DNA of 8,301 nt, from IMG/VR virus record IMGVR_UViG_2609460356_000006. One strand, given 5' to 3'. The notes under the pieces are model-generated. The model was given only the letters and a program-made list of their open reading frames with translations, was not told where the DNA came from and did no database searches. The first letter of the stretch is position 1. Each line of letters opens with the position of its first letter. This document shows, one piece after another, positions 1 to 8,301 of this stretch. A program made the position numbers and the translations under genes. This DNA is from a virus. Lineage: Duplodnaviria; Heunggongvirae; Uroviricota; Caudoviricetes.

Positions 1-348
1 AAATCGCGCCAGCGCTGGCTGTTTTACGCGTATGACAGGCTCCGGAAGACGGTTGTTGCGCACGTATTCGGTGAACGCACTATGGCGACGCTGGGGCGTC
101 TTATGAGCCTGCTGTCACCCTTTGACGTGGTGATATGGATGACGGATGGCTGGCCGCTGTATGAATCCCGCCTGAAGGGAAAGCTGCACGTAATCAGCAA
201 GCGATATACGCAGCGAATTGAGCGGCATAACCTGAATCTGAGGCAGCACCTGGCACGGCTGGGACGGAAGTCGCTGTCGTTCTCAAAATCGGTGGAGCTG
301 CATGACAAAGTCATCGGGCATTATCTGAACATAAAACACTATCAATAA
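1..348 (+). CDS. insB: IS1 transposase InsB, C-terminal part (5'-truncated by window edge)
   Basis: Frame 1 is open from nt 1 ([38 protein letters not shown]...HYLNIKHYQ-stop); the 82..348 ORF is the tail of this frame. Recognised as InsB from memory. Confidence 0.9.
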
Positions 349-363
349 GTTGGAGTCATTACC
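1..363 (+). mobile_element. IS1 insertion sequence, right-hand portion only (left part lies outside the window); right terminal inverted repeat ends at 363
   Basis: Sequence 1-363 matches the IS1 3' region from memory, including the characteristic terminus ...CACTATCAATAAGTTGGAGTCATTACC ending at 363; frame 1 encodes the InsB C-terminus. Confidence 0.9.
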
Positions 364-390
364 CACCTTTTAAAAGAAAAACCCTTTAAA

Positions 391-491
391 GGTGAACAGG
401 TGAATACTTGGTGAACACTTCAATAAAAAGTGTTCCCCCCTTAACTATCTGTTAAATAGACGATTTTATCCACGGTGAATAGTGGTGAACA
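391..491. repeat. Iteron cluster, 5 copies of GGTGAAYA (reverse complement TRTTCACC), crr-like cis replication region just 3' of the helicase gene
   Basis: GGTGAACA at 391-398, 410-417, 484-491; GGTGAATA at 399-406, 474-481; plus inverted copy GAACACTT/AAGTGTTC at 413-420/428-435. The octamer equals the P4 alpha-protein type I iteron TGTTCACC as I recall it. Confidence 0.6.
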
Positions 492-500
492 CTTTTCCCA

Positions 501-2270
501 TTACTTTTGATTTTCTCCACTGTTATGAGATGTATCATTCCACATAGGCATCCAGTCTTCTGAGTCGTCGTGAAGCGTGACGTTTGACCTTATGCCATGT
601 TTTGTTTTGCGCTTCTGGTACTCCTTGCCATATTCAGCCATTGCGCCTGGCATATCCGTACCGAACCTCATCAGCGATACCGGCTTGCTCAGACCATTAG
701 CCCGCATATAAGCCAGATAAGCGTGATACAGATAACGGCGCGGGCTGAATGGCACGATCTCGGCATTGCCAATCAGCATTCCATCACAAACCACCGAAGC
801 CATCAGGTAGCCGCAAAAGTCCACCAGTGAATCCCCTTCACGTTTGATGGCCAGCGCTTCTTCTGATTTCTGCTGCTCATGCAAAAGCTGTTTGGCTTCG
901 TCCTGCCTGGAAAAGCGAGTGAGCAGGTGGCGAATGATTACAGCCAGCTCACCTTCAATCTTCTCGGCCAGCATAGGATCGCGTTCGTTTTCCGGTACCA
1001 CTTCGGAGAAGTTGAAAATCACCCGCCGTCTGGAAACCCCCCCGCTTCTGTCGCTGAACGACATGGCATTGTTATTGACGGCAAGCACCACCGCTGGAAT
1101 ACGGGTTGAATATGGCGCTTTGTGTTTAGGGTCAATGGCTACCTTATCCCCGCCAGTGATAGCTTTAATCCCTGCGCCGTCGCCAGCGTACCGGGTCATA
1201 TCCGGCATGATAATCAGCGAATAGCCCACTACCAGCGCCCTTTCCCTTGGGTTCTCCAGCGCCGCCATGCTCGCTGATACGGTGTTGGCCTTGCCCGCCA
1301 GCATCGTGCAGATCTCAGCCATAACACTTTTACCACTTCCGCCCGGCCCCGTTACCTCAAGAAACAGCTGCCAGTCGTACCGGTTCGCCAGCACCATAAA
1401 CAGCGCAGACAGTACGCGGTCTGCTTTTCGGTCATTATCCGCCACTGAGCGGCGGAGCCATTTCCAGAAGTTCGGCGCATGGGTTGCCAGAGTCTCTCCT
1501 TCTGCTGGTTCGCTGAATGGCAATTCGCTCGCAACGATAAGCCAGTCCTTTTTATCATGCGGTCGAAATTGGCCTAACCGGGTATCAAAAACCCCGTTGC
1601 TGAAACCAATAAGATTTCGGGCTGTATTACCCATCACTGGCAGACCCAGCTTCATTGTATCGACAGCGGATTTAATCGCGTTCTGCGAATAGGCGACTTC
1701 GGCATCAATAAAAATTTGCGCCATTTCCCGCTGTAGCTCTTTATCCGAAAGCGGAACCCACACCACGCCGTTGTAATGATGAACCGTGTCAGAATCAGCA
1801 TGGATCGCCAGATTGCCATCGTAATGAGCAAGCAGAACCTCCCCGCGCTGGCTGGCTCCCATCTGGTTAAGCGCTGGCGTAGCACTACCCCTCGTAGTCA
1901 CCATTAGGGGCTCGTCTTCCAAACGCTTCATTAATGGCGTCCAGTCCTCTTTCTCACCTTTTTCGTTGATAAACTCAGCATTGGTAACGCCAGCCTCACA
2001 CAGCTTATTTGCAATCATGCTGATTTGGTTTTGCTCGATAAGTCCGGCCTGACAGACACGAGCAAACCGACGGCCTTTATCAACAATGCGCAGGTGTGGC
2101 AATTCCGCCAGTTGGGTGTGATCCAGAACCACAGGTGGAACATCGTCTCCATGCTCGCCCTTGCCTTTCTGGTAATCCTGAGCGGCTTTCCATGCTCCCG
2201 TTCCAGCAAAGATGATGGCCTCCTCCATTTTGTCGCGCGGGAGGGTTTTCACATTAGGCGCGTTTTTCAT
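501..2270 (-). CDS. P4 alpha-like replication protein: P-loop (SF3-type) helicase of the phage/plasmid primase P4 family, probably with C-terminal iteron-binding domain
   Basis: 589-aa ORF with Walker A GPGGSGKS (aa 308-315) and Walker B-like LIIMPDM; sits at the end of a small-gene operon and directly upstream of the TGTTCACC-type iterons. Confidence 0.85.
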   Translation of the reverse strand: MKNAPNVKTLPRDKMEEAIIFAGTGAWKAAQDYQKGKGEHGDDVPPVVLDHTQLAELPHLRIVDKGRRFARVCQAGLIEQNQISMIANKLCEAGVTNAEFINEKGEKEDWTPLMKRLEDEPLMVTTRGSATPALNQMGASQRGEVLLAHYDGNLAIHADSDTVHHYNGVVWVPLSDKELQREMAQIFIDAEVAYSQNAIKSAVDTMKLGLPVMGNTARNLIGFSNGVFDTRLGQFRPHDKKDWLIVASELPFSEPAEGETLATHAPNFWKWLRRSVADNDRKADRVLSALFMVLANRYDWQLFLEVTGPGGSGKSVMAEICTMLAGKANTVSASMAALENPRERALVVGYSLIIMPDMTRYAGDGAGIKAITGGDKVAIDPKHKAPYSTRIPAVVLAVNNNAMSFSDRSGGVSRRRVIFNFSEVVPENERDPMLAEKIEGELAVIIRHLLTRFSRQDEAKQLLHEQQKSEEALAIKREGDSLVDFCGYLMASVVCDGMLIGNAEIVPFSPRRYLYHAYLAYMRANGLSKPVSLMRFGTDMPGAMAEYGKEYQKRKTKHGIRSNVTLHDDSEDWMPMWNDTSHNSGENQK

Positions 2271-2445
2271 CTTTCAGCCCCCAGCTAACGAAAGTGAACT
2301 CTTTAACGAACCTTTCCAGCGGAAAGATGCACGGAAAATCGTAACCATCACGCACAAACGTTACCCGGTTAAATGCGTTATCTTTCACCGTGACCAGTTC
2401 GCCGCGCTTATCCTTCCAGCTATCGTTGATTTCAGGATTTCGCAC
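2254..2445 (-). CDS. Small conserved phage protein (63 aa), tentatively DUF4222-like
   Basis: ORF overlaps the helicase start by 17 nt and the upstream gene by 14 nt (translational coupling); motif RVTFVRDGYDFPC resembles DUF4222-type proteins as I remember them. Confidence 0.55.
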   Translation of the reverse strand: MRNPEINDSWKDKRGELVTVKDNAFNRVTFVRDGYDFPCIFPLERFVKEFTFVSWGLKDEKRA

Positions 2446-2647
2446 TGTAAGCCTCCCGCGCCTTCACCAGCTCGCCGATAGATTTGTGCAGCAGAGACAT
2501 AATTGCTCCGACACGGCACGCTTCCTCACGGTGTTCTTCACCGTCGGGAATGCTGTCAATCCACATGCTCAGCACAGACATTGCGCACTCACTTTCTGAA
2601 AGGGCATTTTCAGCGTGCATCAGGACTTCAAAAGGAACCTGTCTCAC
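2432..2647 (-). CDS. Hypothetical small protein (71 aa) in the replication operon
   Basis: ORF tightly packed between neighbours with 4-nt ATGA-type overlap upstream; plausible acidic helical protein; no family recognised. Confidence 0.5.
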   Translation of the reverse strand: MRQVPFEVLMHAENALSESECAMSVLSMWIDSIPDGEEHREEACRVGAIMSLLHKSIGELVKAREAYSAKS

Positions 2648-2838
2648 TTTGTCTCTCCCATGTGCAGCTCGGCGATTAATGCCCGGTGAATTTCCTGATT
2701 AAAATCACACGCAATAGAAATCAGATTCAGCAGCGTTTCTGAACATTCAGCAGAGGCTTTTTCCAGGATGGTTTCGTAAAGTGATGAAGCCAGCGCTGAT
2801 TTATATTCGGCCTGCTCCAGACAGATTGGCTCACGCAT
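2644..2838 (-). CDS. Hypothetical small protein (64 aa) in the replication operon
   Basis: ORF overlapping both neighbours by a few nt; no recognisable motif. Confidence 0.5.
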
Positions 2839-3022
2839 AGCGAACCTCCTGAACTGGTAGACGGCCAGCGCATACCATCACGCAGCCAGCCGGTGATTGC
2901 TCACGGGCTTCGCGCTCAGTGTTAGCTGTGATGTGAATGACGTTGCGACCGATGGCGCTCAGTGCAAGAAAACGCCAGATGTAGGACTTCCGCCCTTGCG
3001 GGTGTGTGATATGATCTTTCAT
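2831..3022 (-). CDS. Small Ash/Icd-like protein (63 aa), first gene of the leftward operon (position analogous to P4 kil)
   Basis: Internal ATG at 3022-3020 of the long 2831..3805 ORF, preceded by GAGG 5 nt upstream; product [63 protein letters not shown] resembles the Ash/Icd-like small proteins of P4-like islands (from memory). Confidence 0.6.
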
Positions 3023-3109
3023 AGCTGCCTCGTTACTTTCGCTAACGGTGGTGGTTAGAGGCCCGGTTAGTGTTCCACCACTGCCGGGCTTTGCTTTACT
3101 AAAAGTCAT

Positions 3110-3169
3110 GCAATGTAGTACATTGTCAACTCCACTACAGACTAGACCACAGGAGTTGACAATGTCAAC
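3110..3169. promoter_or_regulatory. Divergent control region with palindromic operator-like sites
   Basis: Perfect palindromes CAATGTAgTACATTG (3110-3124) and GTTGACAaTGTCAAC (3155-3169, centred on the RHH start codon), extra half-site TTGTCAAC (3123-3130); 13-bp inverted repeat CATTGTCAACTCC (3121-3133) / GGAGTTGACAATG (3152-3164). Confidence 0.5.
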
Positions 3170-3335
3170 AAGCGAAAATAAAGAGCGCCATGTTGTGCAG
3201 CTCAGACTCGATAAAGAACTGTCAGAGCGGCTCGCTTTAGCGATGAAAGAAGACGGTGACGATAATAAGTCGGGATGGATAAAACGCCTTTTGCGCCGTG
3301 AACTTGATAAGCGCGGCATCGAGCCAAAAGGCTGA
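3162..3335 (+). CDS. Ribbon-helix-helix-type small DNA-binding protein (57 aa), candidate repressor of the divergent operon
   Basis: ATG at 3162 preceded by AGGAG (3151-3155); N-terminal beta-strand pattern [12 protein letters not shown] followed by two predicted helices. The 3048 start of the ORF track lacks an RBS. Confidence 0.65.
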
Positions 3336-3421
3336 ACAGGGTTACTCCCCGTAATGCTGTGGACTGCCCCTCTTAAAAAGGGTCTGTTTTGCGCAACTAT
3401 TAATGAGTTGTGCAGAGGCTC

Positions 3422-3445
3422 CCCTCTTAAAGAGGGTTGGTTATC
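3422..3445 (+). terminator. Possible weak hairpin terminator
   Basis: CCCTC-TTAAA-GAGGG stem-loop (3422-3436) followed by a T-rich stretch; a similar but weaker copy at 3367-3382. Confidence 0.3.
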
Positions 3446-3654
3446 TTCGCAGCTCTCTACGTTTTTCGTCGGAGCCTCTAAACCACGTTTAACGTTGTTT
3501 TGCCATGAACCCGAATACTGTTCGCCTTTGTCTCGATCTCCGTACGTTAAACGTACGCGGTTAATTTGTGCGTACGGATTTCGTCGGCTCAAGGTTTGAC
3601 CACCAGCGGCAAGCCTGGTAATCTGGCGATGTTTCTGTAAAGCGGTATTGCACT

Positions 3655-3683
3655 GGCGGCCCGGCATGGCCGCCTTTGTTTTG
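3655..3683 (+). terminator. Rho-independent terminator for a plus-strand transcript
   Basis: Stem GGCGGCC (3655-3661) / GGCCGCC (3668-3674), 6-nt loop, followed by TTTGTTTTG (3675-3683). Confidence 0.6.
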
Positions 3684-3687
3684 CCTG

Positions 3688-4380
3688 TCATACAATAGCC
3701 TCCACTTTCAGCCCGCCAGCGGTATACCCCTGAACCCGAACACCATCGACGCGATGACGCTTTTTCGTCAGAAAGCGGATGTGATCTGCGTAGACGTACT
3801 GCCATTTACCATCGAGTGCCACACGTTTAAACCACGGATGAGGCTTAGATATGGTCTGGACAACTGGCGCGGAAGCCTTGCAGGGCGTGGGTTCTGCTGT
3901 GCATACCCCCTTATCGTTACCCGTTACTCTATACAGCCAGTAACTTGCCAGCTTCCCGGTCAATTTACGGGTGCGCACGGGGATATAACCCGCCTCACGC
4001 ATCGCCTTACCAAAAGTGGCATCGTCCGGGTAATACTGGCGGCGTAGTTCCGTAGATACTGAAACGGCAAAGCTGCGTTTAGTCGGGTATTCCTGCCACT
4101 GGCCGACAAATTCAAAAGGAAGACCATTAACCCTTCCTTTGGTCTTGTCCTTGCCGCTTATCCCTACATCATGGTCTGCCTCATGCACGGACACGCCGGA
4201 ACGCAGCCACACCAGCCCGTTACCGTTGTGGCGCAACCCCAGATCGGCAAGCGTAAATTCACCGCGATTAATGGGCGACCAGTCACCGGAAATAACCTGT
4301 TTACGGTTCGCTGAAATATCGTGCTGGCTGGCTACAGGGTGAGCGAATCCCTGCCCGTGGAGGGCATTAATCTTTTTCAT
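3688..4380 (-). CDS. Conserved hypothetical protein (230 aa) downstream of alpA; possibly the inovirus Gp2 / YfjJ-like family (low confidence)
   Basis: Long ORF with SD-like AGGT about 9 nt upstream, 20 nt after the AlpA-like stop (operon). Family guess rests on synteny in P4-like islands only. Confidence 0.75.
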
Positions 4381-4400
4381 CTCAGATTACCTGTGGTTAA

Positions 4401-4685
4401 TTAAGCAGATTTACGGCTGTATGGGTTATTGACGTTCTCTACTGCTGGCGGATTACGAACCCACCAGAGCACATCCGAAAGAAGCCAAGCACAGCTATTG
4501 CGGCCAAAGTGACAGCGCGGAGGGAAGCGCCCCTGCTGCTCCATCTTCCAGCGGCTGGAACGGGAAAGACTGGTGATCTCGCTGCATTCATCTTCACGGA
4601 TTCGGCGATCAAACTTAAAGCCGTACTCTTCTAAAAGGGTGCGGCGCTGTTCAGGATTTGGCGGGGTAAAGGTTATATTTTGCAT
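4401..4685 (-). CDS. alpA: AlpA/Vis-family phage transcriptional regulator (MerR-like HTH), 94 aa with N-terminal extension
   Basis: SLSRSSRW...GRFPPRCHFGRNSCAWLLSDVLWWV aligns by eye with the AlpA HTH and W-x3-EVxxW motifs; GGAGG upstream of the ATG. Confidence 0.8.
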   Translation of the reverse strand: MQNITFTPPNPEQRRTLLEEYGFKFDRRIREDECSEITSLSRSSRWKMEQQGRFPPRCHFGRNSCAWLLSDVLWWVRNPPAVENVNNPYSRKSA

Positions 4686-4737
4686 GCTGCCTCCACTGTT
4701 TCAATGTTATGCGAAGAGATTAGTGGATAAACGACCA

Positions 4738-4807
4738 GAATTTCCATTGATTCTGGAATCCTTTAAAAGAACATGCAATTCCATTGAAAGATAGAAATTC
4801 CATCAAG
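4738..4807. promoter_or_regulatory. Repeated AATT(T)CCATYRA motif upstream of alpA (three direct copies plus palindrome GATTCTGGAATC)
   Basis: TTCCATTGA at 4742-4750 and 4779-4787, TTCCATCAA at 4798-4806; palindrome 4750-4761; inverted copy TTTCAATG at 4698-4705. Confidence 0.35.
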
Positions 4808-4940
4808 ATAACGCTCCCCTGTTTAAAACAGTTTCCACAGTAATTTCAACGGCTGTCTCGAGAGAAAAAATCATGAATTTCAATAACTCGCCGAAGATCA
4901 CCGTTCTTTAACGATTTGATTCACCTTGGATTGTTCATAA

Positions 4941-5000
4941 CAAAGATGAACAATGATGAACGCTGATGAACAGTGATGAATAACCATGAACAAAGATGGA
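4941..5000. repeat. Six tandem 10-bp units nnnGATGAAC (iteron-like, TGTTCATC on the other strand), candidate ori
   Basis: GATGAAC at 4945, 4955, 4965, with GATGAAT at 4975, CATGAAC at 4985, GATGGA at 4995, all in strict 10-bp register; inverted TGTTCAT at 4932-4938. Confidence 0.5.
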
Positions 5001-5040
5001 AAAAGTTAGCAAGTAATGACCTAGTAGGGACCGTGGATGG

Positions 5041-5140
5041 AGCTAGGTATTGTTAGGTGCTGTCGGGTGCCGTTACGTGTCATAACGTGTCATTACGTGT
5101 CGTTGAATGCTGTTGAATGCTGTTGAATGCTGTTGAATGT
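5041..5140. repeat. Phased decamer array continuing the 10-bp register
   Basis: TGTYRGGTGC x2 (5051-5070), CRTWACGTGT x3 (5071-5100), YGTTGAATGY x4 (5101-5140); no unique spacers between units. Confidence 0.6.
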
Positions 5141-5275
5141 AACGGTAATACACATCAAATATAACAATTGAATCTCCTTGGCGATCATAGAATCGCCAAA
5201 AGCTCCAACAAATATAATTAATTAGTATTTTCACATGAAATATAAATAATACCTACTAACACTGCAAAATAATAT

Positions 5276-5926
5276 TCATTCCGTATAATAAATCGAATTT
5301 AATGCCTTTCGAATTTTCTCATATATTGCTGATTTAGATAATCCAGTTTTAGATATACCTTCCTCATCAGCTAATTTATATAGTTCGTTTAAAATAGCCG
5401 AGATGCTTGGTTTTTTAGAGGTGCCAAACGAATGGCCTATCTTATGTGCTATAAGCTTGACCAGCATCCCCATTAATTTATCATTATATTCCTTTTCATC
5501 TTCTTTACGATGCAAGCCGCGTTTGCTGCTTTTCAATGCAATTCCGACCTGTAAAAGCTCATCCCCTCCCATAGCATAAAGATGCTCTTTTCCTTTGTTT
5601 TGATTAGCAATTATAGCCACCGCCGCAAGGCATCTGTCCTTTATGGGTTGTGGTGTAATATCTTCATCAATAAGAGGATATGCCAGAGCAAACATATAGT
5701 CTGCGGGATAGGCTGTTGAGTTTCCACCTCGAAATAATTTAGATGCTGATAACCATCTACTCAGTTGTCGATAGTATATATTGTAAGCTTCAACTTTCGC
5801 TTCAGGGATATCAGCAGTTTTAACTGTCGGATCTACCCCACACATAAGTAGTGCAAGTTGTTTAATATTTAGCTCCGGGGCTTTGGCTTCTCGCTCGAAA
5901 ATACCCAATTTTAGAAAACTAGTCAT
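5276..5926 (-). CDS. AT-rich cargo protein of unknown function (216 aa) with a C-terminal HTH-like segment, start/stop-coupled to int
   Basis: ATG (5926-5924) overlaps the integrase stop as TAATG; sampled 60-nt lines give roughly 27-45% G+C against about 65% in a sampled line of the replication module; C-terminal ISKTGLSKSAIYEKIRKAL resembles an HTH; no family recognised. Confidence 0.75.
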   Translation of the reverse strand: MTSFLKLGIFEREAKAPELNIKQLALLMCGVDPTVKTADIPEAKVEAYNIYYRQLSRWLSASKLFRGGNSTAYPADYMFALAYPLIDEDITPQPIKDRCLAAVAIIANQNKGKEHLYAMGGDELLQVGIALKSSKRGLHRKEDEKEYNDKLMGMLVKLIAHKIGHSFGTSKKPSISAILNELYKLADEEGISKTGLSKSAIYEKIRKALNSIYYTE

Positions 5927-7146
5927 TATTCAGCCTTATTCAACAAAACAATGTTAGTGAATCCACCTGATAAAATATCAAGTCTGTCATACCATTTATT
6001 CAACGCATCCAGTTTCTCAGGCAAGTACAGACTACGGTTATAAATCGCCATGACTCCCGGCATTGAGTGCCCCAGCAACTGTTCGACAACGTGTGGTGCT
6101 ATACCCATATTATTCATATGCGTTGCTAAAGTTCGTCTTAGATCGTGCAGTGTCCATGGTTCAGAATGCCCTAGCTTTTTATAAACGCCGCGGCCCCACT
6201 GACTTACCGCTTCACTGCCTTTAACCGACCCAAGCAAAAGGCCGGATCGTTTCGTTTCATCATGCAGTATTTCAATGAATTTGCGCATGGCATCCGGCAC
6301 AGGTCTTACAATCTTCTCGCCACCCTTGCTGTGCTCTTTGGGAACTGTCCAGACCCAGGCATCCATATCCCATTCACTCCACTCTGATAGCCTGGCCTCC
6401 TGCGTTCGGCACCCAAACACTATTAAGATTGTCAGTAGCCTGGTGTAGTAAGGCATGAAGCAAGTGCCAGAGGAAATGGCAGCCCATAAATCGCCAGCCT
6501 CTTTATCGTTTAATACCCGGTCTTTTTTTGCCTGTTTTTTACCGACATCTGGAATTGTTAAATCTTCAAGCGCGGTACTCACAGCATAGCGACGAACCCG
6601 GCAGAATTTCAGGGCTTGTTTGCACATCTGGAACACATAACCTGCGGCGACTGGAGTTTTCTTTTTCATCCTGTCAAAGCAGTCAAGCCAGTATCGTGTT
6701 TCACAGTCAGCGAGCGCCATTTTCCCTATATAAGGATAAATGTGTTTTCGCAGCTCCGCTTTGTGCCGTTCAACATTCGCGCGGTTCTCTTCTGCATATT
6801 CGCGTATCCAGTATTCTATAGCTTCCTTAACAGTGACCGGTTTAAGGGTTTCCTGAGTAGTCAACGCCAACTGGTGCTTTGGATCTTTACCTGAGGCCAG
6901 CCACTGGCGGCATTTATCACGCGATGAACGGGCTTCTTTGAGGCTCATATCCGGGTATCGTCCCAGAGTCAGACGATGCAGCTTCTGCCCGTCAAGTCGG
7001 TAAGTAAACACCCAGCTAATACCACCAGCTTTAGTTACCTTGGCGCTCAGCCCGGCACCATCAGCATAGAACTCAATCTTACTGGCCGGGATACCATGTA
7101 ATCCCTTTAACTTCCTGTCGCTCAGTTTGTTAAGTTCGCCAGCCAT
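5926..7146 (-). CDS. int: Tyrosine site-specific integrase, P4-like family (406 aa)
   Basis: N-terminal arm-binding-type region (LSDRKLKGL...WVFTYRLDGQKLHRLTLGRYPDMSLKEAR), catalytic motifs HDLRRT, LLGHS and downstream Tyr; N-terminus faces the host junction. Confidence 0.9.
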   Translation of the reverse strand: MAGELNKLSDRKLKGLHGIPASKIEFYADGAGLSAKVTKAGGISWVFTYRLDGQKLHRLTLGRYPDMSLKEARSSRDKCRQWLASGKDPKHQLALTTQETLKPVTVKEAIEYWIREYAEENRANVERHKAELRKHIYPYIGKMALADCETRYWLDCFDRMKKKTPVAAGYVFQMCKQALKFCRVRRYAVSTALEDLTIPDVGKKQAKKDRVLNDKEAGDLWAAISSGTCFMPYYTRLLTILIVFGCRTQEARLSEWSEWDMDAWVWTVPKEHSKGGEKIVRPVPDAMRKFIEILHDETKRSGLLLGSVKGSEAVSQWGRGVYKKLGHSEPWTLHDLRRTLATHMNNMGIAPHVVEQLLGHSMPGVMAIYNRSLYLPEKLDALNKWYDRLDILSGGFTNIVLLNKAE

Positions 7147-7164
7147 AGACCACCCAGCCCAAAG

Positions 7165-7254
7165 TGTTTATACAAATGTTTATACAGAATTGCTTGCATA
7201 ATAGCATAAACAAAGAAAAACACTGGAACAATATACAGGCATGAATTTATACAA
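7165..7254. promoter_or_regulatory. Repeated TTATACA(R) motif in the int upstream/att region, candidate arm-type integrase sites and int promoter region
   Basis: Tandem TGTTTATACA at 7165-7174 and 7177-7186; related ATATACAG at 7231-7238 and TTTATACAA at 7246-7254; AT-rich. Confidence 0.35.
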
Positions 7255-7316
7255 CGCATTGATTATTATATGAATATTAAAATCATCTAAAAGCATGAAA
7301 ACAGCTAATATGACAG

Positions 7317-7331
7317 TACGGCATGAACTAA
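7317..7331 (+). other. fis: Displaced 3' end of host fis (codons Y-G-M-N-stop), marking the island/host junction (att core region)
   Basis: TACGGCATGAACTAA encodes YGMN-stop, matching the Fis C-terminus ...KKYGMN as I recall it; upstream codons are CAG preceded by an in-frame TGA, so similarity to fis breaks here. Confidence 0.45.
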
Positions 7332-7358
7332 TTCAGGTTAGCTAAATGCTTGATTAAA

Positions 7359-7392
7359 AAGGCGCTACTCGGCATGGGGAAGCGCCTTTTTT
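7359..7392 (+). terminator. Rho-independent terminator, probably the native fis terminator
   Basis: Stem AAGGCGCT (7359-7366) / AGCGCCTT (7381-7388), 14-nt loop, then TTTTTT (7387-7392); A-run on the 5' side makes it potentially bidirectional. Confidence 0.65.
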
Positions 7393-7416
7393 ATAGGTGT
7401 CACAAAGGGAGTGACC

Positions 7417-8301
7417 ATGAGAACAGGATGTGAACCGACCCGGTTTGGTAATGAAGCTAAGACCATTATTCACGGTGATGCCCTTGCCGAACTTAAAAAG
7501 CTACCTACTGAAAGCGTCGATCTGATCTTTGCCGACCCACCGTATAACATCGGTAAAAATTTTGATGGTCTGATCGAAGCCTGGAAAGAAGATCTGTTTA
7601 TCGACTGGCTGTTTGAAGTGATTGCAGAGTGCCACCGCGTTCTGAAAAAGCAGGGCAGCATGTACATTATGAACAGTACGGAAAACATGCCCTTTATCGA
7701 TCTCCAGTGCCGCAAGCTTTTTACCATCAAAAGTCGCATCGTCTGGTCATATGACAGTTCTGGAGTACAGGCGAAAAAACACTACGGCTCCATGTACGAA
7801 CCCATCCTGATGATGGTGAAAGACGCAAAGAACTACACATTCAACGGTGATGCTATTCTGGTAGAAGCCAAAACCGGATCGCAGCGCGCGTTGATCGATT
7901 ATCGCAAAAATCCTCCACAGCCATACAATCATCAAAAAGTACCGGGTAACGTCTGGGATTTTCCGCGCGTGCGTTATTTAATGGATGAATATGAGAACCA
8001 CCCGACGCAAAAACCGGAAGCCTTACTGAAACGCATTATTCTCGCCTCTTCCAACCCAGGCGATATCGTTCTCGACCCGTTTGCCGGTAGCTTTACTACC
8101 GGTGCCGTAGCCATCGCCAGCGGACGAAAATTCATTGGTATTGAGATCAACAGCGAGTACATCAAAATGGGGCTTCGACGGCTGGATGTCGCGTCGCATT
8201 ACTCCGCGGAAGAACTGGCGAAAGTGAAAAAAAGAAAGACGGGCAACCGGTCAAAACGATGCCGGGTTAGCGAAGTTGACCCCGATCTCATTGCAAAGTA
8301 A
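7417..8301 (+). CDS. yhdJ: DNA N6-adenine methyltransferase (beta-class, DPPY motif), host gene
   Basis: ATG at 7417 preceded by AAGGGAG (7405-7411); product MRTGCEPTRFGNEAKTIIHGDALAELKK...DLIFADPPYN, 294 aa, recognised from memory as YhdJ. The GTG at 7411 in the ORF track is probably not the start. Confidence 0.85.
   Translation: MRTGCEPTRFGNEAKTIIHGDALAELKKLPTESVDLIFADPPYNIGKNFDGLIEAWKEDLFIDWLFEVIAECHRVLKKQGSMYIMNSTENMPFIDLQCRKLFTIKSRIVWSYDSSGVQAKKHYGSMYEPILMMVKDAKNYTFNGDAILVEAKTGSQRALIDYRKNPPQPYNHQKVPGNVWDFPRVRYLMDEYENHPTQKPEALLKRIILASSNPGDIVLDPFAGSFTTGAVAIASGRKFIGIEINSEYIKMGLRRLDVASHYSAEELAKVKKRKTGNRSKRCRVSEVDPDLIAK

What the first reader, a model, noticed from the sequence alone, without database searches (positions are those of the whole stretch)
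5276..5926. AT-rich 216-aa cargo gene fused to the integrase stop codon is the best candidate for an undescribed function
The gene starts inside the int stop codon (TAATG) and is clearly more AT-rich than the rest of the element, so it looks like recently acquired cargo. Its position, just 3' of int, is where P4-like satellites carry variable and often anti-phage cargo, as I recall from the literature. I recognise no family for it. The C-terminal HTH-like segment suggests DNA binding, so it may be a regulator or a single-protein interference factor, possibly working with the adjacent repeat block.
Basis: partly seen in the sequence, partly recalled or inferred. Interest (0 to 1): 0.75.

Follow-up and report, generated by a model that had tools for sequence, protein, structure and literature searches.

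The report
Integrase-coupled regulator candidate with phased repeats
The 216-aa gene is real and belongs to no described family, but it is not loose anti-phage cargo: in phage satellites of many enterobacterial genera it always sits after the integrase and before 10-bp repeat arrays and conserved boxes upstream of the master activator gene alpA, so it is most likely a DNA-binding regulator of satellite induction.

Summary
A 216-aa ORF (5276-5926, minus strand) starts in the integrase stop codon (TAATG). It is AT-rich (GC 0.38, GC3 0.30, against 0.48-0.57 for neighbours). It matches no Pfam, NCBIfam or PADLOC family, only PHROG 30524 (function unknown), and its confident AlphaFold model matches no known fold.

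The element is not P4-like. It is a capsid-forming PICI of the KpCIDSM30104/EcCIGN02175 type, inserted at the fis/yhdJ site and cut here by IS1.

The gene belongs to a small Enterobacterales family, detectable down to 25% identity. In all but one of the loci examined the order is int, then this gene (start within 4 nt of the int stop), then a 290-730 bp AT-rich spacer, then alpA. The spacer holds blocks of 9-10 bp phased direct repeats (11 of the 12 tested) and a conserved box region, CA(C/A)TGGAAT x3 plus an inverted ATTCCAG.

Boxes and arrays follow this gene, not the alpA type or the replicase. Sister islands with 97%-identical AlpA carry a different gene in the slot and have neither.

My best reading (about 0.4) is a DNA-binding regulator, probably a repressor, of the alpA promoter, exchanged with its cis sites as one cassette. 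Defence cargo remains possible (about 0.2). Nothing was tested experimentally.

The parts
5926..7146 (-). Tyrosine integrase (406 aa). Its stop codon overlaps the start of the 216-aa gene.
   Evidence: Pfam Arm-DNA-bind_3 5.5e-19 and Phage_integrase 5.2e-18; TAATG junction.
5276..5926 (-). The 216-aa gene, called X here. It is all-alpha, with a neutral N-terminal domain, a conserved R-G-x-H-R-K segment (residues 136-141) and a basic C-terminal HTH-like pair of helices (175-213).
5178..5199 (-). Hairpin TTGGCGAT-tctatg-ATCGCCAA, about 80 nt after the X stop codon. It is a possible terminator of the int-X transcript.
   Evidence: Read from the sequence. Comparable GC-rich hairpins follow the gene in L007, L009 and L010. 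The terminator scan did not call it because no T run follows.
5102..5139 (-). Repeat block A: GCATTCAACA, 3.8 perfect copies. The copy number varies between islands.
   Evidence: TRF score 76. Copy number is 2-10 among loci whose X is at least 98% identical.
5042..5101 (-). Repeat block B: GACACGTAAY x3, then degenerate units (GCACCCGACA, GCACCTAACA, ATACCTAGCT) in the same 10-bp register.
   Evidence: TRF; register read; copy number 2-6 in near-identical loci.
4939..4998 (-). Repeat block C: six imperfect decamers, (T/C)(G/A)TTCATCnn, ending in the inverted copy ATGAACAA. The copy number is stable in nearly all near-identical loci.
   Evidence: TRF, 6.0 copies. 16 of 19 scorable loci have 6 copies and the other three have 4-5. 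GTTCAT/GTTTCAT blocks recur in most genera.
4740..4805 (-). Conserved box region upstream of alpA: TGATGGAAT (4797-4805), TTTCAATGGAAT (4778-4789), inverted ATTCCAG (4753-4759) and CAATGGAAAT (4740-4749). This is the candidate operator and promoter of alpA.
   Evidence: The 5-mers CTGGA and TGGAA are enriched (z 10-12). Four of four evaluable public loci with the box pattern have X upstream.
4712..5938 (-). The exchangeable cassette: the stretch with no DNA similarity to sister fis/yhdJ islands. It comprises X, the arrays and the box region.
   Evidence: blastn breakpoints lie at 4708-4711 and at 5939 or 5983 against L002-L004.
4401..4685 (-). alpA, the master activator of PICI induction and the presumed target of the cassette.
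   Evidence: Pfam Phage_AlpA 5.3e-10; the role of AlpA is from PMC6092414.

Best explanation
The 216-aa protein (X) is a satellite-encoded DNA-binding regulator of the alpA promoter, most likely a repressor. It would keep the island quiet while integrated. X is translated together with integrase from the constitutive int transcript. Its basic C-terminal HTH-like domain, preceded by a conserved RGxHRK arm, would recognise TTTCA-containing sites. Such sites occur in phase in the fixed decamer block C and in the three boxes plus one inverted box around the alpA promoter. Cooperative binding on one face of the DNA would then occlude or loop the promoter. The neutral N-terminal domain would mediate oligomerisation or sense a helper-phage signal. 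Gene and cis sites move together as one exchangeable, immunity-like cassette. Shown here: the gene, its conservation, the synteny, the co-occurrence with arrays and boxes, and the cassette boundaries. Inferred: DNA binding, the identity of the sites, the direction of regulation and any response to a helper phage.
For: (1) The order int, X, spacer, alpA holds in all loci examined except one degenerate copy (L024), across about 10 genera, X identity 100% down to 28%, three integrase types and several replicase types. The X start lies within 4 nt of the int stop. (2) Phased 9-10 bp arrays exceed the 99th percentile of shuffles in 11 of 12 X loci and in none of the 4 sister-island spacers, which are only 89-138 bp long and so a weak control. 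(3) The arrays do not follow the replicon. Each island's true ori, with its own iterons, lies after pri. L014 has the window's arrays but different ori iterons and a different pri allele. (4) The box region accompanies X with both the 94-aa and the 71-aa AlpA types. It is absent (0 matches to CWNTGGAAW) in L002-L004, whose AlpA is about 97% identical to the window's. (5) Homology to sister islands breaks at 4708-4711 and at 5939 or 5983, so the gene, arrays and boxes are one cassette. (6) The box pattern found blind in IMG/VR and metagenomes has X upstream in 4 of 4 evaluable loci. (7) TTTCA is enriched in the spacers (52 observed, 16 expected), is biased to one strand (91 against 46), and is spaced at 10, 19-21, 30 and 40 bp. 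It occurs in both block C and the boxes. (8) The protein looks like a binder, not an enzyme. The only invariant positions in the wide alignment are P92, G137 and G195. The C-terminal part is basic, and the GLSKSTFYxKI motif aligns with the AlpA recognition helix. (9) Context from the literature: no repressor is known for Gram-negative PICIs (PMC6092414), and SaPI Stl and the P2 C repressor also lie next to int.
Against: There is no experimental evidence and no significant homology to any DNA-binding family; all HTH hits are below threshold. Blocks within one locus have unrelated sequences. Serratia, for example, has at least 5 different decamers, which one sequence-specific protein cannot read, so at best only some blocks are X sites. 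Blocks A and B vary from 2 to 10 copies between near-identical islands, which suits neutral slippage as well as function. L004, which lacks X, has CTGGAAA and ATTCCAG words upstream of the same alpA, so the boxes could still be AlpA sites. The co-variation between the Tyr/Asp residue of the putative recognition helix and TTCCAG/TTCTTA is confounded by phylogeny. Sister islands manage without X, so it is not essential to the island type. The promoter scan found no convincing sigma-70 promoter at the boxes.
Confidence: 0.4

Rival explanations
1. X is anti-phage or anti-satellite interference cargo: a single protein, expressed with int in the resident state, that blocks a helper or competing phage.
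For: The int-alpA slot is a recognised place for accessory genes in PICIs (PMC10085698). The slot differs between sister islands, and all its occupants are AT-rich orphans. KpCIDSM30104, which carries this gene, lowers its helper phage titre more than 100-fold by an unexplained mechanism (bioRxiv 10.1101/2025.02.11.637232).
Against: Neither X nor the four sister slot proteins hit PADLOC. X has no conserved catalytic-type residues. Its linkage to a conserved cis-regulatory region upstream of alpA holds across very divergent islands, which free cargo should not show. The authors who study cf-PICIs place the immune hotspots on either side of the packaging module.
Confidence: 0.2
2. The phased arrays are landing pads for other proteins: AlpA itself, or Cox/Apl/Xis-type recombination directionality factors of helper phages. 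Such binding would switch on alpA, as P2 Cox switches on P4 PLL. X would be only a co-regulator, or unrelated to the arrays.
For: Directionality factors bind at least 3 direct repeats spaced one helical turn apart, cooperatively. P2 Cox activates the P4 late promoter through at least 6 cox-boxes (PMC3936717 and PMC7498355). Here each block has 3-10 units at a 9-10 bp period, and the blocks differ in sequence within a locus, as expected for several different binders. alpA is known to be induced by an unidentified helper factor.
Against: The arrays occur only with X, not with the same alpA in sister islands. No array unit matches the cox-box TTAAAGNCA by eye. No helper phage sequence was available to test.
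Confidence: 0.13
3. X coats the arrays as an architectural or centromere-like complex. Its purpose would be something other than alpA control: segregation or tethering of the excised episome, insulation of alpA from int read-through, or silencing of AT-rich DNA.
Confidence: 0.12
4. X is an accessory factor of the integrase, controlling recombination direction or att-site architecture. That would explain the translational coupling.
For: The X start lies within 4 nt of the int stop in every locus, with three unrelated integrase types.
Against: The arrays lie about 2 kb from the att core. A separate 12-bp repeat (7162-7185) sits beside int as a probable arm site. AlpA-family proteins already fill the directionality role in related elements. 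Sister islands with the same int lack X.
Confidence: 0.05

Closest known systems
Stl master repressors of SaPIs (Gram-positive PICIs)
   Same: Both are encoded next to int, beside the switch region that controls the island's induction genes. Both are highly variable between related islands. Both would have a DNA-binding part joined to a variable part that could sense a helper protein.
   Different: There is no sequence or fold similarity. stl and its target are divergently transcribed, whereas here all genes run the same way and the target is an activator gene (alpA). Repression by X is not shown.
P2 C repressor and int operon, and P2 Cox / 186 Apl operators
   Same: The regulator is co-transcribed with int. 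The operators are direct repeats at one or two helical turns. In those systems at least 3 adjacent phased sites bind cooperatively and bend DNA. There is also a precedent (Cox acting at P4 PLL) for phased repeats upstream of a satellite's key promoter.
   Different: X is 216 aa and unrelated to C (99 aa) or to Cox and Apl (about 90 aa). The gene order is int then X, not C then int. The arrays are much longer (about 200 bp), have several blocks, and vary in copy number.
Centromere-binding systems with phased repeats (ParR/parC of R1, TubR/tubC, pSK1 Par)
   Same: Arrays of 10-12 bp direct repeats lie beside the gene of a small helical DNA-binding protein. pSK1 Par works as a single protein with an HTH and a coiled coil.
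cf-PICI KpCIDSM30104 / EcCIGN02175 (also deposited as 'phage' vB_KppS-Ant, LR881103)
   Same: This is the same element family. X is 99.5-100% identical, and int, alpA, the 230-aa gene and pri are near-identical.
   Different: The window copy lies in E. coli at fis/yhdJ and is cut by IS1 inside the ori. In the text I searched from the papers on these islands I found no function assigned to this gene.

Membership tests
   Intact relatives L001 and L022 carry major capsid, HK97 protease, portal, connector, terS and terL. No psu, sid or delta was seen. alpA, a D5-type primase and TGTTCACC iterons are shared with P4.
Capsid-forming PICI (cf-PICI) | int, alpA, pri-rep plus own capsid, protease, portal, head-tail adaptor and connector, terS and terL; no tail or lysis genes; about 14-18 kb | tested here: met
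   Met in the full-length relatives (L001; L022, 16,548 bp; IMG/VR contigs of 15-18 kb). L006 is K. pneumoniae ATCC 13883 = DSM 30104, host of KpCIDSM30104. The window shows only int to ori because IS1 cuts it.
HTH DNA-binding proteins (Phage_AlpA/HTH_17, resolvase HTH_7 and similar) | A significant profile match or a fold match to an HTH domain | tested here: inconclusive
   Only sub-threshold hits: Phage_AlpA best E 0.0035 in 3 of 20 members; HTH_7, HTH_10 and SpoIIID. The PDB profile search found nothing. hhalign against AlpA gave probability 8% but aligned the GLSKSTFY motif with the AlpA recognition helix. The model shows two C-terminal helices with a turn.
Known anti-phage defence systems | A match to a PADLOC model, or a recognisable effector domain with conserved catalytic residues | tested here: not met
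   PADLOC found nothing at E<=0.1. Across the wide alignment only P92, G137 and G195 are invariant.
Zinc metalloprotease (matrixin / archaemetzincin; weak Pfam and NCBIfam hits) | An HExxHxxGxxH zinc-binding motif conserved in the family | tested here: not met
   The window has AHKIGHSFG, with K in place of E and no third His. These His residues are replaced in homologues (AKKVGH, ANKVGG).
Replication origin or iteron control region of the island | Repeats that match the iterons bound by the island's own Pri-Rep and that co-vary with the replicase | tested here: not met
   The ori iterons (TGTTCACC in the window at 391-491) lie after pri in every island and differ with the replicase. L014 has the window's arrays but GTAGACAG iterons. 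Block C (TGTTCATC) differs from the window's iteron by one base, which remains unexplained.
RDF-type operator arrays (Cox, Apl, Xis) | At least 3 direct repeats spaced one helical turn apart, with cooperative binding and DNA bending | tested here: inconclusive
   The DNA anatomy fits: 3-10 units at a 9-10 bp period. Binding, cooperativity and bending cannot be tested with these tools.
Stl-like PICI master repressor | Binds the operator at the island's early promoter, represses it, and is relieved by a helper-phage protein | not testable with these tools
   Only the position (next to int, upstream of the switch), the cassette-like variability and the linked cis sites are shown.

The most novel reading that the evidence does not exclude
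X and its spacer form a new kind of induction switch for Gram-negative phage satellites. It would have three parts: a fold-orphan repressor made with integrase; a fixed phased array and promoter boxes as its operator; and next to them hypervariable decamer arrays that gain and lose copies in steps of one helical turn. Those variable arrays would act as tunable landing pads for helper-phage DNA-binding proteins, for example Cox/Apl/Xis-type factors, so that repeat number and sequence set which helper phages can wake the island and how easily.
Probability: 0.12. Interest if true: 0.8.

Novelty: new variant of a known kind. Interest (0 to 1): 0.58.

Why it matters
How Gram-negative PICIs and cf-PICIs stay silent, and how helper phages switch on alpA, is an open question. 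The founding paper says it is unclear whether a repressor exists and that the helper-encoded inducer is unidentified (PMC6092414). This gene sits in KpCIDSM30104/EcCIGN02175, the cf-PICIs now used to study transfer between genera. A defined candidate regulator with mapped candidate sites therefore makes the question directly testable in an existing genetic system. The 10-bp arrays, which change copy number between otherwise identical islands, are an unusual and unexplained feature of a bacterial regulatory region. If the gene instead proves to be a defence factor, it would be a single-protein system with a new fold.

Tried and rejected
1. Metalloprotease: the weak Peptidase_M10 and archaemetzincin hits rest on AHKIGH, which lacks the Glu and is not conserved. 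Rejected.
3. PDB sequence-profile searches, with the whole protein and with the C-terminal domain, gave nothing meaningful.
4. Arrays as the island's ori or iteron control: rejected, because the ori lies after pri and varies independently.
5. Arrays as integrase arm sites: rejected on distance (about 2 kb from att). A separate 12-bp repeat lies beside int.
6. Arrays or spacer as a known RNA: Rfam found nothing at the gathering threshold or at E<=1.
7. The small ORF 5073-5234 (53 aa, GTG start) inside the arrays has no PHROG hit and reads through the repeats, so I treated it as non-coding.
8. Plasmid or phage origin: the family occurs only in islands, in their excised circles, or in chromosomes mislabelled as plasmids.
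9. Homology of X to the sister slot proteins: BLASTP found nothing (E>0.5). Three sister proteins share a 40-aa N-terminal HTH-like motif with one another only.
10. I first read the palindromes after the sister slot genes as private operators. They may equally be terminators of the int operon, so I do not use them as evidence.
11. The E. coli-wide search with the box region of L015 found nothing, because that variant is absent from complete genomes.
12. The sigma-70 and terminator scan of 4600-6000 was uninformative.

Full report
**1. The observation.** The window carries a minus-strand gene row: int (5926-7146), a 216-aa ORF (5276-5926), a 590-bp spacer, alpA (4401-4685), a 230-aa orphan, small genes including DUF4222, and a D5-type primase (501-2270). 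yhdJ lies on the plus strand at 7411-8301, and an IS1 fragment occupies 1-363. The ORF's ATG overlaps the int TAA by one base (TAATG). Its GC is 0.381 and its GC3 0.295, against 0.48-0.57 for the neighbours. The window has no tRNA gene. The ORF is a real gene. It has full-length homologues at 51-100% identity in Klebsiella, Enterobacter, Rahnella, Yersinia, Serratia, Brenneria, Pectobacterium, Xenorhabdus, Proteus, Providencia and Edaphovirga. A profile search of 1.84 billion representative proteins found only 46 hits, colinear down to about 25% identity. Near-identical copies differ mostly at synonymous sites, 18 against 3 over three non-independent comparisons.

**2. What the element is.** It is not P4-like. 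The nearest intact relative in E. coli (strain OW1E2, 97.6% identical over 364-8301) continues past the primase with two orphan genes, then major capsid, HK97 protease and portal. A 16.5-kb copy deposited as 'phage' vB_KppS-Ant also has terS, terL and connector genes. The copy in K. pneumoniae ATCC 13883 (= DSM 30104) has an identical alpA and a 99.5% identical 216-aa protein. That strain hosts KpCIDSM30104, a capsid-forming PICI studied together with EcCIGN02175 (bioRxiv 10.1101/2025.02.11.637232). The island sits at the fis/yhdJ site used by 'fis PICIs' (PMC10111431). In the window, IS1 cuts the island inside its replication origin, where three exact TGTTCACC iterons lie at 391-491. Only 7 of 5,426 complete E. 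coli genomes carry the gene.

**4. Synteny.** In all but one of the loci recovered, the gene directly follows an integrase, with its start within 4 nt of the int stop. A 290-730 bp AT-rich spacer follows, and then alpA. The loci came from the genome collection, exact-protein look-ups, plasmid and phage records, IMG/VR and metagenomes. The order holds for three integrase types (some only 25% identical to the window's), for the 94-aa and 71-aa AlpA types, and for D5, Toprim-D5, DUF927 and P4-type primases. It holds in both classical PICIs and cf-PICIs. The exception is a degenerate copy on a Salmonella IncHI2 plasmid, where the integrase is broken and there are no arrays.

**5. The repeat arrays.** The window spacer has three blocks in one 10-bp register over about 200 bp. 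Block A is GCATTCAACA x4 (5102-5139). Block B is GACACGTAAY x3 followed by degenerate units (5042-5101). Block C is six TGTTCATC-like units (4939-4998). Self-identity at lag 10 (lag 9 in two loci) exceeds the 99th percentile of shuffles in 11 of 12 loci with the gene, including homologues of 28% identity. It does so in none of the four sister-island spacers, although those are only 89-138 bp long. Unit sequences differ between genera and between blocks of a single locus; Serratia has at least five different decamers. One type recurs in most loci, GTTTCAT or GTTCAT. TTTCA is three-fold enriched, biased to one strand, and spaced at 10, 19-21, 30 and 40 bp. Among 22 loci whose protein is at least 98% identical, block A has 2-10 copies and block B 2-6. 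Block C has 6 copies in 16 of the 19 loci that could be scored. Spacer length runs from 560 to 650 bp, always in steps of 10.

**6. The arrays are not the origin.** Each island has its own iterons just after pri: TGTTCACC, TGGTTCA, AGGTGTAACA, ACCGACAAC, GTAGACAG and others. These change with the replicase. The Enterobacter island has the window's arrays but different iterons. The arrays are also too far (about 2 kb) from att to be arm sites. A 12-bp repeat at 7162-7185 beside int fits that role better.

**7. The box region.** Between the arrays and alpA lies a stretch of about 75 bp that is conserved across genera. It has two boxes of the form TTTCA(C/A)TGGAAT about 21 bp apart, followed by CTTTCAAAAGATTCCAGACTCACTGGAAT, which is an inverted ATTCCAG plus a third box. 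In the window it spans 4740-4805. Proteus, Providencia and Pectobacterium have variants (CTAGAAAT, ATTCTTA). These coincide with a Tyr-to-Asp change in the putative recognition helix, but that co-variation is confounded by phylogeny. The boxes accompany the gene with both AlpA types. They are missing (0 matches) upstream of alpA in three sister islands whose AlpA is about 97% identical to the window's. One caveat: one of those islands (L004) has CTGGAAA and ATTCCAG words. A blind search for the box pattern in IMG/VR and metagenomes returned five loci, and all four evaluable ones have the gene upstream.

**8. The cassette.** Sister islands at the same chromosomal site are 86-97% identical to the window up to 4708-4711 and again from 5939 or 5983. 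In between they carry a different single AT-rich gene: DUF6387, or one of three orphans that share a 40-aa HTH-like N-terminus. Their spacer to alpA is only 89-138 bp. None of these proteins hits PADLOC. The unit of exchange is therefore the gene together with its arrays and boxes.

**9. Interpretation.** The best-supported reading is that the protein regulates the alpA promoter, most likely as a repressor. It would be made with integrase in the resident state and would act through the TTTCA-containing block C and the boxes. This fits three things: the open question of what keeps Gram-negative PICIs silent (PMC6092414), the position of Stl and the P2 C repressor next to int, and the known habit of small phage regulators to bind at least three direct repeats one helical turn apart (PMC3936717, PMC7498355). 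I put this at about 0.4. It does not explain why each locus has several unrelated, fast-changing blocks. Those may be binding sites for other proteins, such as AlpA or helper-phage Cox/Apl/Xis-type factors, following the precedent of P2 Cox at P4 PLL. They may also be largely slippage products. Defence cargo (0.2) is not excluded: KpCIDSM30104 reduces its helper more than 100-fold by an unknown route. It has no positive support, however, and sits poorly with the strict linkage to a regulatory region. Architectural or centromere-like roles and integrase-accessory roles are less likely.

**10. Novelty and verdict.** The gene is annotated 'hypothetical' in every annotated record I examined, and the papers and passages I searched on these islands assign it no function. 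The family is a fold orphan, and its association with phased, copy-number-variable decamer arrays appears undescribed. The general kind of thing, a mobile-element regulator with phased operators, is well known. I therefore rate it a new variant of a known kind, with interest 0.58. Its interpretation is partly supported: a regulator linked to the repeats, yes; P4-like, recently acquired, probably anti-phage cargo, no.

Noticed in passing
window 1-363 and 364-500: An IS1 fragment (InsB C-terminus, ORF 82-348) abuts the island's replication origin. Three exact TGTTCACC iterons, identical to the P4 type I iteron as I recall it, lie at 391-491. In intact relatives the origin extends further, so this copy of the island is truncated and probably cannot replicate or be packaged.
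   Followed up: partly
window 4939-5139, compared with L001, L006, L014, L022 and L036-L052: The perfect decamer blocks behave like a VNTR. Block A has 2-10 copies and block B 2-6 among islands whose neighbouring gene is at least 98% identical. Spacer length always changes in steps of 10 bp, and the imperfect block C almost always stays at 6 copies. One IMG/VR copy (L043) has a spacer of about 1.8 kb, presumably from an insertion.
   Followed up: partly
window 7162-7185: A 12-bp direct repeat (AAGTGTTTATAC AAATGTTTATAC) lies just upstream of the int start. It is conserved beside int in E. coli, Klebsiella, Enterobacter, Brenneria and Proteus islands (TRF consensus TGTATAAACACTT). It is probably an integrase arm-type site or an element of the int promoter.
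   Followed up: no
window 7358-7400: A GC-rich hairpin followed by a T run (aaaaaggcgctactcggcatggggaagcgccttttttat) lies between the island end and yhdJ. It looks like the fis terminator retained at the attachment site, in line with the 'fis PICI' integration site described in PMC10111431.
   Followed up: no
window 4686-4720; L002, L003 and L004 upstream of alpA: Just before the alpA start the sister islands have CCTCCAC-N14-GTGGAGG, an inverted repeat that would pair with the Shine-Dalgarno GGAGG. The window has a weaker version (CCACT...CAGTGGAGG). This suggests possible translational control of alpA.
   Followed up: no
window 4909-4921: AATCAAATCGTTA, between block C and the boxes, fits the IHF consensus WATCAANNNNTTR. 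It may be chance, or a bend site between the arrays and the promoter.
   Followed up: no
window 3688-4380: The 230-aa gene just after alpA has no Pfam, PHROG, NCBIfam or PADLOC match. It is the position that the cf-PICI authors describe as a variable gene of unknown function downstream of alpA. Sister islands have AntA/AntB or Bro-N proteins there.
   Followed up: partly
window 2831-3805 (minus strand): A 324-aa ORF in the mechanical list spans the region where relatives are annotated with small genes (Icd-like on the minus strand, and a YlcI/YnfO or HicB-like gene on the plus strand, compare ORF 3048-3335). One deposited record annotates this long ORF as hypothetical, but it is probably spurious.
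   Followed up: no
L003, L004 and L005 slot genes (sister islands at fis/yhdJ): Three otherwise unrelated slot proteins (309, 272 and 245 aa) share a 40-aa N-terminal motif (I-P..Y..LE.A..LGCE..DL...G; 40-45% identity, E 1e-6 to 1e-10). It resembles an excisionase/MerR-type HTH joined to variable C-terminal parts, an Stl-like architecture that deserves its own study.
   Followed up: partly
L009 and L010 (Xenorhabdus), spacer positions about 480-690: The Xenorhabdus islands have an extra small AlpA-like HTH gene between the box region and the 94-aa-type alpA, so they carry two AlpA-family genes in tandem.
   Followed up: no
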